Assembly (NCBI GenBank): GCA_016840085.1 | Contig: JAEOTA010000070.1 | Coordinates: 1 to 16,154, forward strand | Source: Promethearchaeota archaeon | GTDB taxonomy: Archaea > Asgardarchaeota > Lokiarchaeia > Sigyniarchaeales > SOKP01 | Reading direction: 5' to 3' | DNA length: 16,154 bases | Shown: positions 926 to 16,154 of the stretch, one piece after another | How the letters are laid out: each line of letters opens with the position of its first letter | Position numbering within the stretch: the first letter of the stretch is position 1 | Program-made: the position numbers and the translations under genes | The notes under the pieces: generated by a model | Databases searched by the model: none | What the model was told of the DNA's origin: nothing | The model's input: only the letters and a program-made list of their open reading frames with translations

Positions 926-1315
926 ATGTATGAAGAAAATTATCAGACAAAAGGTATTGAGACTAAAAGTCTTGAAGAATTATATGAAAGCTTATATAAA
1001 AACTCAGAGTTACCTGGAAAAACTCACGGATTCATGTATATTATACGTTCTGTTGATGAACAAGGAAATTTTACCGATACTCGTTGTAAGATCGGAGAGA
1101 CAAGTAAGAATGTCGATGAATACGTAAAGCGAAGATTAGATCCTAGAAATCCATATAAATTAACAATTCTTGGAGAAATAAGAGGAGGAGAATGGGAGAC
1201 AATTTTTCATATAAGATACAGAAAATACCACATCCATCATGAATAGTTTGAGTTTGTTGATGAAATGCTTGAATTTATTAGACTTTTAGAAAATAAAGGT
1301 TATAGAGTAAGATAA
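926..1315 (+). pseudogene. T5orf172/MUG113-type GIY-YIG-like protein with in-frame TAG
   Basis: GFMYII...KIGET...RRL...NPYKL...E-x2-FH motifs. TAG at 1244-1246 sits where the family's EWF Trp is expected (HHE*FEFVDEMLEFIRLLENKGYRVR, TAA at 1313-1315). Confidence 0.7.
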
Positions 1316-5784: not shown

Positions 5785-6005
5785 AATAAAATTTTTCCTA
5801 TTATTTATTAAATTCAAGCTTTTGTTATATAGCTTTTTGTAATTACAAATAATTAATGGATAGATAATTCTTTAAATTTAAAAGAAAAGGTAACAATGTT
5901 TTAACTTTTAACAACCAATCTTAATAAAATTAAAAGATTTAAAGAATAAATTATTACTCACTAAAATACAATAAAAAAATTCAAAAAAAAATATACAAAT
6001 TAAAG

Positions 6006-12074: not shown

Positions 12075-13115
12075 ATGGTAATTGAAATGAAAGAAACAGT
12101 CAAGAATTTGATGCAAGCTTTTGTCTATGAATCACAAGCGCGAAATCGGTATGAATTATATTCAAAAACTGCTAGAAATGAAGGTTTAATGTTGTTCTCA
12201 AGATTTTTTGAAGAGATAGCAGATCAAGAAAGAGAACACGCAACTTGGAATTATTTATTACTCCAAAGACTGAAGAAGGATGAGATCTTTGGAAATTTAA
12301 AGGTTGAAATTGAGAGTACTACTGTATATGGTACAACTATCGAGAATTTAAAATCCGCTATTAAAGAAGAAGCTTTTGAATTTCGCGAGATGTATCCAAA
12401 TTTTGCCTCAATAGCAAAAGAAGAAGGATATTATGAAATTGCTAAAAAAATAAACGATATTGTGAAAATTGAAAGAAATCATTTTAATCGATTACAAATG
12501 CTTTTACAACTAGCGAAAGATGATAGTTTACTTAAACGTAGTAAAATAAATGTATGGAAATGTATAGAATGTGGATTTGAAGTTCCTAGAGATGAACTAC
12601 CTGATAATTTTCAATGTCCTTCATGCAAGCATTTTAAACCTTATTTTCAGAAACACGTTTTAACGTTAGTTCAAGAAGATGATGCAGAAAAAATACTTTG
12701 GATTTGTATGGAATGTGGATATGAAGTTGTAATGAATGAATTACCAGATAATTTTCAATGTCCTTCGTGCAATCGCTCGAAAGTTTATTTTAGAAGAAGA
12801 TCTTTGAAACCTGATCATTATAAGGTATCTGTCAAAGAAGCTGAAAAAGCCATATGGAAATGTATAGAATGTGGATATGAAGTTGTAATGAATGAATTAC
12901 CAGATAAGTTTCAATGTCCTTCATGTAATCGTTCGAAAGCCTACTTCAGAAGAAAAGCTTCAAAACCGCTAAAATATGATGTATCCTTGAAACAAGCCGA
13001 AAAAGATGCCGAAAAAGCCATTTGGATCTGTTTAGAATGTGGCAACGAAGAAGAAGTCGATATGCCAGAAGGGTGGAAATGTCCTATGTGCGGTTATCCT
13101 AATACTAAAAGATAA
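12075..13115 (+). CDS. Rubrerythrin with four tandem C-terminal rubredoxin-like domains
   Basis: Diiron ligand motifs ESQA..RY, EREH, EEAFE..MY and ERNH, followed by four WxCxECG...CPxC units. Confidence 0.9.
   Translation: MVIEMKETVKNLMQAFVYESQARNRYELYSKTARNEGLMLFSRFFEEIADQEREHATWNYLLLQRLKKDEIFGNLKVEIESTTVYGTTIENLKSAIKEEAFEFREMYPNFASIAKEEGYYEIAKKINDIVKIERNHFNRLQMLLQLAKDDSLLKRSKINVWKCIECGFEVPRDELPDNFQCPSCKHFKPYFQKHVLTLVQEDDAEKILWICMECGYEVVMNELPDNFQCPSCNRSKVYFRRRSLKPDHYKVSVKEAEKAIWKCIECGYEVVMNELPDKFQCPSCNRSKAYFRRKASKPLKYDVSLKQAEKDAEKAIWICLECGNEEEVDMPEGWKCPMCGYPNTKR
12555..13100 (+). repeat. Intragenic tandem repeats encoding rubredoxin-like domains
   Basis: Trp codons open the units at 12555, 12699, 12855 and 13023. 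Units 2 and 3 share gaatgtggatatgaagttgtaatgaatgaattaccagataa exactly. Confidence 0.9.
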
Positions 13116-13767
13116 TATTAAATTCTAAATTTTAGATTTAATGCTTCAAAATAATTTTAGACAGAATTGAGACATTATGAATCTCACCTTTTCTAGTTTT
13201 TAATAATAAGTTTTTAGATAGATACTAAGTAAGAACAAATAAGGTATTATTTATTGAAAGAGGTTGATGATTTTCTGATTTGGGTAAATTTATCACAAAT
13301 AAAGAGTCTGACTTTGAAAATCATATAGTATATTACAAAGTATAGATAAAAATCTCTTTACAAAAGGCGTTAACTTAATTATATCAAAAGAAATAATTCA
13401 AAATCTTTAATTTCTTATGAAGAGGATAAGAATAAGATAATTGGGCGCGGACATTTTGCATTCTCCATTTTTTTAAGGTGTGAACTAAACGAATCGTATA
13501 TATATTCGAATTTAATAGATTTCAAAGTGCTCCATAAAATGGGGCTACTAATGAATATTTGGAAAGACATTATCATAATAGAACTGATCAATTTTATATA
13601 GTCAACAGGGTTGTTTATACTTCAGGTGATGGTGATGATTTTGAAATTTATGACTCCCAAGGTTGTTATAAATTAGTTTTCGAATATTTCACAAAAGGTA
13701 GTCACAAAAAGTAGTTGACAAGATTATTGCAGAATTATCCACTATAGAGGTTGAGACTGATATTGAT

Positions 13768-15177
13768 GTGGAAGGAATGACTCCTCTTCATTATGCATTG
13801 TGGTATATTAAGACTCATAACGATATTTATTCTCGAAGTTTTAAGAAATTACTTCCGCATATTAAAAATCTAGATAAGTCAAGTTTCCGTCTTCCTTCAG
13901 AACGTGATCCTTTTATCAGACAAAATATAATAGAGGAATACAATCAAATGGTAATTTCTGGACACGTGCCTCGTTTAGTTTATACCGTGGTTCAGAAGAA
14001 AGATTTTAAGGGGATTCCATTATCAAGACCTCCATTATATATCGGAATTACAAAAGCAGGTGGTGACCCTATCCACAAATATGCCAGATGGCGTACTCAT
14101 AAAGAAGCTTCTTATAGGCGTTATCATTTTCTAAAGTTACATGATTTAGGTCTATTAGATTTTAATATTAGAAGATGTGTAAGGCTTTTAATTGCAAGAG
14201 ATGGCATTACATACCCTCAGGCGTTTGCAAGAGTTGATGAGTATTTTGAGTTTATTCCTTTTGATATTGCCACTTCTGATCGAGAATTATTTGATCTTGA
14301 AGAATTTTTCCAAATATATATAAATCGAGAGAATAATTTTCGAGGGTGGGATTTGAGGATTAATATGGAGTTTAATAGAAAGATTGGTGGCTCACGTCAA
14401 TTAGGAGTCTCGATTAGCAGAGCTCATTTAGAATCATTAATGGAAATAGGTCTAAGGGCGATTGATATTGCTTATGTGCTTAATATGGATGAACACATTC
14501 TTTATGACCATTTATCGCTATATTGGCCAGATAAAAGTTATAAAGATATTCAGACTGAATTAATGGGTGATTTTGTGTTCGGTTTATTTGAGAAAGGATT
14601 CAGTTTTGATGAAATTCGAAAATATTATCTTATGAAAGGTACCTTTCATTGGAGCTCATTTAAGGTATCATCTGGGATTAATTTAGAATTAAAATCTTAT
14701 TATGACGTTGCCAAGGATTATAAGCCTTTATACAGGCGTCTTTCTTCTTATTATGTTAAATCATTATATCAAGTTAGAGCTGATAATTATTTTAAGCCGT
14801 TAATGATATCTTTATATCGAGAAGGTCATATTACAAGGTATCAATTGATTGATGATTTAGCACAGGAACATCTTGAGAGAAGTGGACAGAGTTCGAATCC
14901 TGTAATATTAGCTTTCTTTTGGCTCCAAGAATTAGTTTTAAAGTTGGAAATAGATTTAATGATTATAGATGGTTTGGGATATTCAGATATGGTAATTCAA
15001 TTGGGGCTTTTACAGCCTGATTATACAGCTAAAGACCGTCGTTTAATGTATAGACATATGGAGAGATTAGTTAAACGTATATATGGGAATGTATCTCTTG
15101 ATTATTTAACTGTTTTACTTAAGTCACGTTATTTAGGAGATTTAACAGGTCGACTAAATTTCTATAGTCCAGTTTAG
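13768..15177 (+). CDS. GIY-YIG nuclease-like protein with C-terminal HTH-like modules
   Basis: LVY...LYIGIT...RWRTH...DLEEFF...FNRKIGG follows the GIY-YIG order (Y, YIG, R, H, E, N). LMEIGLRAIDIAYVLNMDEHILYDHL is HTH-like, with weaker echoes at LFEKGFSFDEI and MIIDGLGYSDM. Confidence 0.65.
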   Translation: MEGMTPLHYALWYIKTHNDIYSRSFKKLLPHIKNLDKSSFRLPSERDPFIRQNIIEEYNQMVISGHVPRLVYTVVQKKDFKGIPLSRPPLYIGITKAGGDPIHKYARWRTHKEASYRRYHFLKLHDLGLLDFNIRRCVRLLIARDGITYPQAFARVDEYFEFIPFDIATSDRELFDLEEFFQIYINRENNFRGWDLRINMEFNRKIGGSRQLGVSISRAHLESLMEIGLRAIDIAYVLNMDEHILYDHLSLYWPDKSYKDIQTELMGDFVFGLFEKGFSFDEIRKYYLMKGTFHWSSFKVSSGINLELKSYYDVAKDYKPLYRRLSSYYVKSLYQVRADNYFKPLMISLYREGHITRYQLIDDLAQEHLERSGQSSNPVILAFFWLQELVLKLEIDLMIIDGLGYSDMVIQLGLLQPDYTAKDRRLMYRHMERLVKRIYGNVSLDYLTVLLKSRYLGDLTGRLNFYSPV

Positions 15178-15197
15178 TTTTTATACTTTAATTACTA

Positions 15198-15228
15198 TTT
15201 TTTTTATTTTTTTTAATTATTTTTTTTT
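15198..15228 (+). terminator. Triple oligo-T terminator of the GIY-YIG gene
   Basis: T8, T8 and T9 tracts starting 21 nt after the stop. Confidence 0.5.
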
Positions 15229-15320
15229 ATTACCTTATAATTAGGTCGTTTTTTAGGTAAATTACCCTTTTTTTATTACTTATGACTATTCAGGTTATAT
15301 TGAGAAAAATTACTTTAAAT

Positions 15321-15651
15321 TGACACCTTGAGCTTATACCCGCCCTTCTGTCTACTACTTTCGTCGCCAAAAGTAGGATTGAGCATCCAACTATGCGGCC
15401 TACCTAAAGCTCGTTCCAAGTGCCTCATAGCTTTCATTTGGCCTTGCACCAAGGTCTGATCCGTTCCAACCATTCCCTCCTACAATTTCTCTGGCTTATT
15501 TCCAAGTCATTAATATCTGTAAGAAGGTAGTGTCGTTTCAGTTATCAGATTATGGTTTTCACCATAGTAGTTTTCTACACCTTGCTTGGAGTGTGGGGCG
15601 AAGTTCCTCAGCGAGTCAAGCCCACCGTCAGCTCAACAGCTCAATGTGTCA
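15321..15651 (-). ncRNA. rnpB: RNase P RNA, archaeal type A, complete
   Basis: Manual folding of the minus strand: P1 UGACACaUUGAGCU/AGCUCAAgGUGUCA; P2 UUGAGC/GCUCAA; CR-I GAGGAACUUCGCCC pairs with CR-V ACAGAAGGGCGGGU (P4 with bulged U); P6 UCCAAG/CUUGGA; P7 CAAGGU/ACCUUG; P8; P9 with GAAA loop; ACUGAAACGACAC; GUGCAAGGCCAAAU; L15 GGU; P16; P19 with GCGA loop; no P18. Confidence 0.95.
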
Positions 15652-15671
15652 TGTTATATAATTTTTTTTCT

Positions 15672-15687
15672 TTATTAAATCCTTCTG
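15672..15687 (-). promoter_or_regulatory. Candidate BRE/TATA for the complete rnpB
   Basis: Minus-strand CAGAAGGA-TTTAATAA, with the TATA-like element starting 28 nt before P1. AT-rich context makes this weak. Confidence 0.35.
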
Positions 15688-15990
15688 TACTGACACTCGT
15701 CACCAAGCGTCAGTTGGAGCATCCAATTATGCAGCCTACCTAAAGCTCGTTCCAAGTGCCTCATAGCTTTCATTTGGCCTTGCACCAAGGTTTTAGCTCG
15801 TTCCAACCATTCCCTCCTTCAATTTCTCTGGCTTATTTCCAAGTCATCAATATGTGTAAGAAGGCAGTGTCGTTTCAGTTGCTAAAATATGGTTCTCACC
15901 ACAGTAGTTTCCTACGCTTTGCTTGGAGTGTGAGGCGATATTCCTCAGCAGGTTAAACCCACCCTCAGCACCATATCTCACTTGTGTAAT
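15681..15990 (-). pseudogene. rnpB: Second, diverged RNase P RNA gene lacking the 3' strands of P4 and P1
   Basis: Colinear with the complete copy (offset ~336 nt, roughly 85% identical by manual count, 58-nt exact match 15398-15455/15734-15791). Ends at ACAGAAGG and runs into AT-rich spacer. Confidence 0.88.
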
Positions 15991-16154
15991 TCCTTAAGAA
16001 ATATGGATAAATACAAATATAAAATTAAAAAAAAACTTAATTGTTGAACCACACTCACCCGACAAAATCAATACGGGCGCGTCCTCATGATAGAAAGATT
16101 TATCTTTGTGAAAACCTTATTATAATTAATGCCAGCAAAACCTTCCGATATAGA

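What the first reader, a model, noticed from the sequence alone, without database searches (positions are those of the whole stretch)
13768..15990. Candidate system: free-standing GIY-YIG/HTH endonuclease coupled to replacement of the RNase P RNA gene
Seen: a nuclease-like gene converging on a complete rnpB, which sits 29 bp downstream of a second rnpB broken inside its most conserved motif (CR-V/P4). Known: GIY-YIG plus HTH modules is the architecture of homing endonucleases, and free-standing phage ones spread by cutting a neighbouring conserved gene while the linked allele is resistant. Inference: a selfish cassette that disables the resident essential ribozyme gene and supplies its own allele. 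The copies differ most in P19, right next to the break. I do not know of such an element targeting rnpB. Adjacency could be coincidental, and the nuclease may be a remnant of a larger protein.
Basis: partly seen in the sequence, partly recalled or inferred. Interest (0 to 1): 0.72.

Follow-up and report, generated by a model that had tools for sequence, protein, structure and literature searches.

The report
Nuclease cassette replacing Asgard RNase P
In this Asgard archaeon a 2.5-kb piece of foreign DNA, carrying a relative's version of the RNase P ribozyme gene and a DNA-cutting enzyme gene, has landed inside the host's own copy and left it broken; related enzymes sit in the same kind of scar in other conserved genes, which points to a selfish gene that breaks a gene and supplies the spare part.

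Summary
Confirmed. The resident rnpB (15987-15681) lost 19 nt of its 3' end; its last 5 nt survive at 13173-13169. Between them lies a 2,507-bp insert: a promoter, a complete foreign-type rnpB and a convergent GIY-YIG/multi-HTH gene with its catalytic residues intact. The broken copy is the vertical one; the intact one groups with an allele that has moved between lineages. No other genome searched links this nuclease family to rnpB, and rnpB stubs occur without it, so a dedicated rnpB element is not shown. But the closest homolog sits between a broken purA start and a replacement start with an intron-like insert at the break, and other members flank stubs of thrS and fwdA. Two relatives carry tRNA-type introns in rnpB inside the 19 nt lost here; I found no report of these. 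Best reading (0.55): a free-standing homing endonuclease that replaces gene ends, like fungal mitochondrial mORFs. Main rival (0.3): passive anchored gene transfer, which left about 20 nuclease-free stubs in this genome. The scan noted similar cassettes in CPR bacteria and the purA intron before. Cleavage untested.

The parts
13116..13173 (-). Last 5 nt of the resident rnpB (13173-13169) and its native downstream spacer up to the rubrerythrin gene; right junction of the insert
   Evidence: Window 13047-13173 is colinear with single-copy relative G024 up to and including the gene's last 5 nt, then diverges. Similarity beyond that point is not significant, p=0.36.
13174..15680 (.). 2,507-bp insert that replaces 19 nt of the resident rnpB 3' end
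   Evidence: Absent from G024 and G108, where rnpB is followed directly by rubrerythrin. Whether it came in one step is inferred, not shown.
13250..13767 (+). Decayed coding DNA 5' of the nuclease: pieces of reading frame broken by stops and frameshifts; the nuclease frame is already open from 13702
   Evidence: Three-frame translation, stop-to-stop frame. No homolog found locally.
13768..15177 (+). GIY-YIG/multi-HTH nuclease gene, 469 aa (466 from the ATG at 13777)
   Evidence: Neutral decay of 4% would leave such an ORF open only 2-7% of the time.
13969..14388 (+). GIY-YIG catalytic domain (residues about 68-207): Y72, Y91-I-G93, R107, H111, E178, then G-W-D-L at 193-196 and N199
   Evidence: E178 invariant; Y72, G93, R107, N199 in at least 90% of 21 family rows. 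4 of 21 members hit PF01541, best 9e-6. I-TevI catalytic domain Z 4.3, rmsd 3.6, 80 aligned.
14410..15132 (+). Helical DNA-binding region: tandem HTH (residues 215-343) and a further HTH (389-455)
   Evidence: VIA-align: AraC-type Z 7.6, rmsd 3.1, 97 aligned; LuxR-type Z 6.1, rmsd 2.3, 56 aligned; model pLDDT 68. Z under 8 is only moderate.
15178..15320 (.). T-rich spacer between the converging nuclease gene and intact rnpB; likely terminator region
   Evidence: Sequence; function inferred.
15321..15651 (-). Intact replacement rnpB of foreign 'type B' (P1, P2, P10/11, P19), with a P12-P17 middle and P4 of resident type
   Evidence: Rfam 130 bits. Groups with G004/G025/G107/G109/G010 at 100/99. 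Grouping with the upstream copy rejected, p-AU 0.008. 67-nt run identical to G108 against at most 26 nt to type B genes.
15652..15680 (-). 29-nt linker holding a TATA-like box (15679-15672) 20 nt before P1; the purine run at the end of the broken gene stands where type B genes have their BRE
   Evidence: Same TATA-to-P1 spacing (20-21 nt) as G004, G025, G107; promoter function inferred.
15681..15987 (-). Resident rnpB, now a pseudogene: cut off in CR-V, P4 5' strand altered
   Evidence: Sister to G108 on the rnpB tree as on the RpoB tree. 17 lineage-specific changes against 5 in G108; 5 changes at columns conserved in 95% of relatives.
16005..16027 (-). Decayed promoter of the resident copy: 6-nt deletion removing the BRE and a changed TATA box
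   Evidence: Alignment to G108 and to a metagenome relative.
16028..16154 (.). End of a repeated IS-like element at the contig end, just upstream of the dead copy; not part of the insert
   Evidence: Identical to the end of contig C61, 80% to four other contig ends; its inverted repeat ends contig C49 after the gene that precedes rnpB in G024 and G108.

Best explanation
A free-standing GIY-YIG/HTH homing endonuclease gene came in from another lineage of the genus together with that lineage's rnpB. Shown: the insert sits inside the resident gene, removed 19 nt of it, and supplies the only working RNase P RNA gene. Inferred: the enzyme cut the resident gene in or beside CR-V. With no homology beyond the nuclease, the break was healed from donor DNA by illegitimate joints; on the left, at a short purine match between CR-V and the donor promoter's BRE, which brought in the whole donor gene with its TATA box. 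The resident copy then decayed, while gene conversion moved resident sequence into the middle of the new copy. The family does this at several conserved genes: it lands near a gene end, breaks a conserved motif and carries the replacement end. tRNA-type mini-introns at such sites would make alleles resistant (collaborative homing).
For: Both junctions bracket rnpB and nuclease together. Broken copy vertical, intact copy foreign. Type B alleles are one clade on the rnpB tree but not on RpoB (p-AU 6e-63), and the gene next to them follows the species tree. Catalytic set kept and ORF open despite the age of the event. Closest full-length homolog (33%) lies between a purA start broken at the P-loop aspartate and a new purA start with a 30-nt hairpin insert 2 nt from the break, in two independent assemblies, with the empty site in G000. 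Other members: thrS 5' stub (G090), fwdA 3' stub with the same convergent layout (G006), a zinc-ribbon gene stub. Flanking repeats at 5 of 28 family loci against 18 of 400 control ORFs, p=0.012; the four control hits opened in full were not stubs of this kind. G108 and G114 carry different bulge-helix-bulge introns in rnpB 7 nt 3' of the break, inside the lost 19 nt. Precedent: fungal mORFs (PMC3630166); intronless and collaborative homing (PMC2988022).
Against: No family member at 139 other rnpB-region loci, including all five type B genomes. rnpB stubs without a nuclease in G108, G104, G017. G000 holds about 20 gene-end stubs around ordinary cargo, so the layout is a common by-product of gene transfer here; against a guessed pool of accessory genes the family's enrichment is only about fourfold. 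The intact copy has the same 17 nt around the break as the resident type and no intron, so resistance is not visible. The left joint is explained by BRE similarity alone. Many homologs are C-terminal parts of long proteins and most show no stub. The nearest stub-flanked members P0004 and P0006 lack the catalytic Arg or Tyr. No cleavage data.
Confidence: 0.55

Rival explanations
1. Homology-facilitated illegitimate recombination with the nuclease as passenger: foreign DNA holding rnpB and an adjacent nuclease module (a detached C-terminus of a long protein) entered using the conserved RNA gene as anchor, and microhomology fixed the joints. The enzyme made no cut.
For: About 20 nuclease-free stub-plus-cargo insertions in G000. 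Stubs and gene-order shuffling at rnpB across the genus without a nuclease. Break coincides with a BRE-like purine run. Decayed coding DNA 5' of the ORF and long fused homologs. The process is known (PMC3784515, refs 42-44).
Against: It does not predict very short 5' stubs broken at catalytic motifs that are also intron sites (purA, rnpB). Background stubs are mostly 3' stubs of ordinary genes. It does not explain the ORF staying open.
Confidence: 0.3
2. Two unrelated events: the foreign rnpB replaced the resident first, and the nuclease gene later dropped into the spacer behind it.
For: The open ORF could reflect recent arrival rather than selection. Type B donors have no nuclease beside rnpB.
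Against: It needs a second insertion in a very small window between the new gene and the 5-nt resident remnant. No internal scar or target duplication was seen.
Confidence: 0.1
3. No transfer: local tandem duplication, or two ancient rnpB paralogs with differential loss.
For: The copies share long identical tracts (58 nt). Type B branches outside the genus's type A alleles.
Against: In-place duplication rejected, p-AU 0.008. Type B lies inside the resident gene, which is intact in both closest relatives. Paralogy needs more than ten losses of type B against four gains.
Confidence: 0.03
4. Assembly chimera of two co-occurring species' rnpB genes.
For: Genome contamination estimate 7.6%. The joint between the copies was not checked on reads.
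Against: The upstream copy is decayed and has a dead promoter. The linker is unique and has correct promoter spacing. The resident remnant lies 2.5 kb away. An independent contig confirms rubrerythrin-nuclease-type B end.
Confidence: 0.02

Closest known systems
Fungal mitochondrial mobile endonuclease ORFs (mORFs) that make hybrid genes: Allomyces macrogynus atp6, Glomus atp6/atp9/cox2/nad3 (PMC3630166)
   Same: Free-standing endonuclease (GIY-YIG at Glomus atp9) that carries a foreign copy of a gene end and leaves the displaced native end beyond it; native part groups with relatives, inserted part does not.
   Different: Here an archaeal chromosome, a ribozyme gene as target, a whole replacement gene with its own promoter rather than a fused end, a convergent nuclease, 19 nt deleted. 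Activity untested.
Free-standing GIY-YIG homing endonucleases of T4-like phages (Seg family); intronless and collaborative homing (PMC2988022, PMC10448857)
   Same: GIY-YIG plus HTH modules beside an essential gene; target site coincides with an intron insertion site in relatives.
   Different: Cellular genome, 470-aa protein family with no Pfam hit for most members, broken stub left in place, and the introns are host-spliced bulge-helix-bulge type rather than group I.
Integrase-driven islands at tRNA/tmRNA/rnpB 3' ends (own knowledge; scan note e1-5289461)
   Same: Foreign DNA at the 3' end of a stable-RNA gene, gene function restored by the incoming DNA.
   Different: No integrase in the insert, no att duplication (19 nt lost, not repeated), and the whole gene is replaced.
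Homology-facilitated illegitimate recombination (PMC3784515, refs 42-44)
   Same: Stub-plus-cargo-plus-replacement layout, microhomology joint.
   Different: Needs no nuclease and has no reason to favour catalytic motifs or intron sites.
Archaeal bulge-helix-bulge introns of tRNA, rRNA and cbf5 (10.64898/2026.10.13.758758 for Asgard tRNAs; cbf5 from own knowledge)
   Same: The G108 and G114 rnpB inserts have a 4-bp central helix, two 3-nt bulges and an intron helix; removal restores the normal end exactly.
   Different: They lie in RNase P RNA, just after CR-V; that preprint does not mention RNase P, and four paper searches found no report.

Membership tests
GIY-YIG nuclease superfamily | Two beta-strand motifs (Tyr; Tyr-Ile-Gly), helix-1 Arg, metal-binding Glu | tested here: met
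   Y72, Y91-I92-G93, R107, E178 present and conserved across the family; 4 of 21 members hit PF01541.
GIY-YIG nuclease superfamily | C-terminal Asn of the Gly-Tyr-Asn motif | tested here: inconclusive
   The family reads G-Y/W-D-L with a conserved Asn four residues later (N199).
GIY-YIG nuclease superfamily | Fold matches solved GIY-YIG domains | tested here: inconclusive
   I-TevI domain Z 4.3, rmsd 3.6, 80 of 92 aligned, and PD-T4-3 Z 4.2, both within background range; Atlas features 0.88, 9 of 10 best named hits in one clan.
Free-standing homing endonuclease / mORF | Patchy distribution, present at a site that is empty in close relatives | tested here: met
   Absent at the locus in G108, G024 and a metagenome relative; family in 40 of 161 class genomes at differing sites.
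Free-standing homing endonuclease / mORF | Carries a foreign replacement of the target gene part; native part displaced | tested here: met
   Trees and junctions; same at purA, thrS, fwdA for homologs.
Free-standing homing endonuclease / mORF | Recurrent linkage of close homologs to the same target gene | tested here: not met
   0 of 139 other rnpB-region loci; but no homolog above 35% identity exists in the databases searched, so orthologs with the same specificity were not available.
Free-standing homing endonuclease / mORF | Linked allele resistant to cleavage | tested here: inconclusive
   17-nt core identical to resident type; flanks (P19, P1 3' strand) differ on both sides.
Free-standing homing endonuclease / mORF | Site-specific double-strand cleavage and biased inheritance | not testable with these tools
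   Needs biochemistry.
Tyrosine-integrase island at a stable-RNA gene | attL/attR duplication of the gene end and an integrase gene | tested here: not met
   19 nt lost, no repeat at the two joints, no integrase in the insert.
Archaeal RNase P RNA (RF00373) | Complete P1-P4 core with CR-I and CR-V above the gathering score | tested here: met
   Met by 15651-15321 (130 bits; genus range 119-136); the upstream copy lacks the P4 and P1 3' strands.
Bulge-helix-bulge intron (rnpB of relatives G108, G114) | 4-bp central helix, two 3-nt bulges, intron helix; precise restoration on removal | tested here: met
   exon-side outer helix is missing (relaxed form); both genomes have two splicing-endonuclease subunit genes.
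Bulge-helix-bulge intron (rnpB of relatives G108, G114) | Spliced out of the RNA | not testable with these tools
   No RNA reads available.

The most novel reading that the evidence does not exclude
Lokiarchaeia chromosomes carry an undescribed family of large GIY-YIG/HTH homing endonucleases that invade conserved cellular genes (rnpB, purA, thrS, fwdA) by breaking a catalytic motif and supplying the replacement. They drive horizontal swaps of an essential ribozyme allele and select for host-spliced mini-introns at the cut sites, including introns in RNase P RNA. This would give a DNA-level route for the spread of tRNA-type introns into core genes in the closest prokaryotic relatives of eukaryotes.
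Probability: 0.4. Interest if true: 0.85.

Novelty: new variant of a known kind. Interest (0 to 1): 0.68.

Why it matters
RNase P RNA is a single-copy core gene usually treated as vertically inherited; here a replacement by a foreign allele is caught half-finished, in a genome with no protein-only RNase P match. If the nuclease is the driver, gene-end-replacing homing, described for fungal mitochondria and phages, also acts on Asgard chromosomes. It would offer a testable reason why mini-introns gather at catalytic motifs of Asgard core genes. The rnpB introns in two relatives would add a new RNA class to archaeal endonuclease splicing. One cleavage assay with three natural alleles tests the whole model.

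Tried and rejected
Pfam, PDB sequence and Foldseek (PDB, viral, Atlas) searches gave nothing significant for the protein itself; weak rows there are no evidence about the fold. The single-sequence fold of the N-domain failed, pLDDT 34. The word-based homolog search found only the protein itself. A metagenome scan for clade-specific rnpB gave one locus: single, intact, no nuclease. A spliced product joining the two copies was considered: no bulge-helix-bulge motif at the joint, and the P1 strands are of different types. A longer decayed 3' remnant at 13174-13203 is not significant. The alaS stub beside the G080 homolog was set aside because G000 has tandem alaS paralogs. The GTPase stub in L069 (27 nt, 5 kb away) is weak. 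Mis-binning of G010 as the cause of type B spread was rejected: its adjacent gene follows its RpoB. A phylum-wide intron pattern gave 33 hits; of the 20 fetched, only G108 and G114 lie in rnpB. The bacterial promoter scan was at chance level.

Full report
1. Observation. The window is contig C66 of a Lokiarchaeia (Promethearchaeota) genome (a homolog's cluster is named Loki_b32). Rfam finds two tandem RNase P RNA matches on the minus strand, one complete (130 bits) and one without a proper 3' end. They are the only two in the genome. The upstream copy stops at 15681 inside CR-V; 29 nt later the intact copy starts. A 469-codon ORF converges on it. No other of 102 family genomes with a match has a near-full tandem pair.

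2. The insert has two mappable joints. By RpoB the closest relatives are G108, then G024. In both, rnpB is followed directly by the rubrerythrin gene. The window is colinear with G024 from the rubrerythrin end to 13173, which includes the last 5 nt of a normal rnpB. So the resident gene is split: its first 307 nt at 15987-15681, its last 5 nt at 13173-13169, 19 nt missing, and 2,507 bp in their place. That insert holds a TATA-like box, the intact rnpB, the nuclease gene and about 500 bp of decayed coding DNA. Contig C49 ends with the gene that precedes rnpB in G024 and G108 and with the inverted repeat of the IS-like end at 16028-16154, so the upstream copy is at the native locus.

3. Which copy is whose. 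The broken copy is sister to G108, as the species tree predicts. The intact copy falls in a separate 'type B' clade with G004, G025, G107, G109 and G010 at 100/99. Holding the two copies together is rejected (p-AU 0.008). Type B genomes are not a clade on RpoB (p-AU 6e-63), and the gene beside rnpB follows the species tree, so the allele has moved on its own several times (inference by parsimony). The intact copy is a mosaic: its ends are type B, but P4 and the P12-P17 middle are of resident type, with a 67-nt run identical to G108; gene conversion from the neighbour is the simplest cause. The broken copy is decaying: 17 changes against 5 in G108, about 5% against 6.5% at fourfold sites on the same branch, and its promoter lost the BRE. 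The swap is therefore old. No protein-only RNase P matched in this 99% complete genome, so the insert probably holds the only working gene.

4. The protein. It has no close homolog; 14 representatives pass E 0.001, the best at 33%. The wider family occurs in 40 of 161 class genomes, both free-standing (about 450-530 aa) and at the C-terminus of long proteins. E178 is invariant, and Y72, G93, R107 and N199 nearly so; four members hit Pfam GIY-YIG. The model matches the I-TevI catalytic domain weakly (Z 4.3) and HTH domains moderately. The window protein keeps the full set, with Asp where GIY-YIG enzymes have the last Asn. An ORF of this make-up would stay open in only 2-7% of neutral runs at 4% decay, so it is either maintained or younger than the swap.

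5. Where homologs sit. None is near rnpB: 0 of 139 other rnpB-region loci, and none of the family loci holds rnpB. But the closest homolog lies between a purA start that breaks right after the P-loop aspartate codon and a new purA start; the new start carries a 30-nt hairpin insert 2 nt from the break. A second assembly shows the same, and the upstream neighbour is the gene that faces purA in G000, so this is an insertion in the resident purA. G000, G093, G004 and G033 have bulge-helix-bulge introns at that purA site. The G090 member lies between a 10-codon thrS stub and a new thrS start. The G006 member, a remnant, converges on an intact fwdA with the displaced old 3' part beyond it, the layout of this window (a scaffold gap is near). 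A zinc-ribbon gene stub flanks P0006. Flanking repeats occur at 5 of 28 family loci against 18 of 400 control ORFs (p 0.012); two of those five (alaS, G148) I do not count as clean cases.

6. Introns in rnpB. G108 has a 32-nt and G114 (another genus) a 30-nt insert at one site, 7 nt 3' of the break here and inside the lost 19 nt. They are unrelated in sequence, yet both form a 4-bp central helix with the exon, two 3-nt bulges and a 7- or 9-bp inner helix, and removal restores the normal end. Both genomes encode two splicing-endonuclease subunits. That is 2 of roughly 90 family rnpB ends read. Paper searches found no such intron, and the Asgard tRNA-intron preprint does not mention RNase P.

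7. What weighs against. G000 has about 20 gene-end stubs around ordinary cargo with no nuclease, so anchored gene transfer makes this layout routinely. rnpB itself is such an anchor: G108, G104 and G017 have stubs or decayed second copies beside other genes. The left joint falls on a purine run that resembles the BRE of type B promoters, at the right distance from the TATA box, which can explain its position without a cut. The new copy keeps the resident 17-nt core at the break and has no intron. Type B genomes have no nuclease beside rnpB.

8. Mechanism and odds. Most likely (0.55) the nuclease is a free-standing homing endonuclease that cut in or near CR-V, and repair from donor DNA installed the donor's rnpB, promoter and nuclease. 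The cut, the single step and resistance are inferred. Passive anchored transfer gets 0.3, two separate events 0.1, duplication or paralogy 0.03, chimera 0.02.

9. Against what is known. It works like fungal mitochondrial mORFs, which carry a foreign gene end and displace the native one (PMC3630166), and like phage intronless and collaborative homing (PMC2988022). It is not an integrase island. Membership among homing endonucleases is not established, since cleavage is untested and same-target recurrence was not met. I found no paper on such elements in Asgard archaea. Earlier notes of this scan describe small GIY-YIG replacement cassettes at tRNA genes and glyQS in CPR bacteria, one at a phage RNase P RNA, and the purA intron; these are unchecked AI notes, except that I found the purA intron independently.

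10. Verdict. Real feature, new variant of a known kind, interest 0.68. The allele replacement and the rnpB introns are well supported by sequence; the nuclease's causal role is a little better than even.

Noticed in passing
L047:8191-8233 (G108) and L128:3290-3330 (G114): Two unrelated 32- and 30-nt bulge-helix-bulge-type introns at the same site in RNase P RNA genes, just after CR-V; no report found.
   Followed up: partly
L228 (G000:C49:147217-147265, minus); also G093, G004, G033: 31-32-nt frameshifting bulge-helix-bulge intron in the purA P-loop aspartate codon; the scan had noted this intron in other genomes.
   Followed up: partly
L067:31-65 and 1630-1732; L264:3010-4748: purA broken after the P-loop aspartate, nuclease gene, then a new purA start with a 30-nt hairpin insert at the intron site.
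   Followed up: yes
L210:5047-5100: thrS 5' stub before the G090 nuclease; the bases right after the break resemble the 3' end of the rnpB introns plus the rnpB 3' exon (about 15 of 20). Unexplained, may be chance.
   Followed up: no
L248:1128-3583 (G006): Intact fwdA, convergent nuclease remnant, then a displaced 81%-identical fwdA 3' fragment; a run of N follows.
   Followed up: partly
L051, L052, L054, L055, L056 (G107, G109, G004, G025, G010): Genomes with only the type B rnpB have the gene inverted relative to its neighbours, with no remnant of type A detected.
   Followed up: partly
L047:3963-4122; L048:5586-5621 and 5843-5908; L049:1457-1623: rnpB 5' stubs with promoters, a 3' stub starting at CR-V, and a decayed second copy in G108, G104 and G017, without a nuclease.
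   Followed up: partly
whole genome G000: About 20 duplicated gene ends, mostly 3', flanking 1-5 kb of ordinary cargo genes: a record of frequent anchored gene acquisition.
   Followed up: partly
window 16028-16154: End of a repeated IS-like element sitting between the surface-protein gene on contig C49 and the dead rnpB promoter; transposase not recovered.
   Followed up: partly
window 12075-13115: Rubrerythrin with four C-terminal rubredoxin-like repeats (144-168-nt period); several relatives have shorter versions of about 290 aa.
   Followed up: no
window 926-1246: 106-aa ORF with a weak MUG113/T5orf172-like match (E 0.058), perhaps a second decayed GIY-YIG-type gene.
   Followed up: no
G000:C19:186214-187089: 5'-truncated paralog of the nuclease family (292 aa), converging on a leucine-rich-repeat gene; similar genes neighbour several family members.
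   Followed up: no
L208 and L050 (G017:C30), L051:1-6083, L258 (G121): Very long ORFs (over 8,000 aa near rnpB in G017; 13,771 aa with a weak family match in G121).
   Followed up: no
G000:C49:156715-157662: Xer-like tyrosine recombinase gene in the conserved neighbourhood about 10 kb from rnpB; no link to the insert was tested.
   Followed up: no
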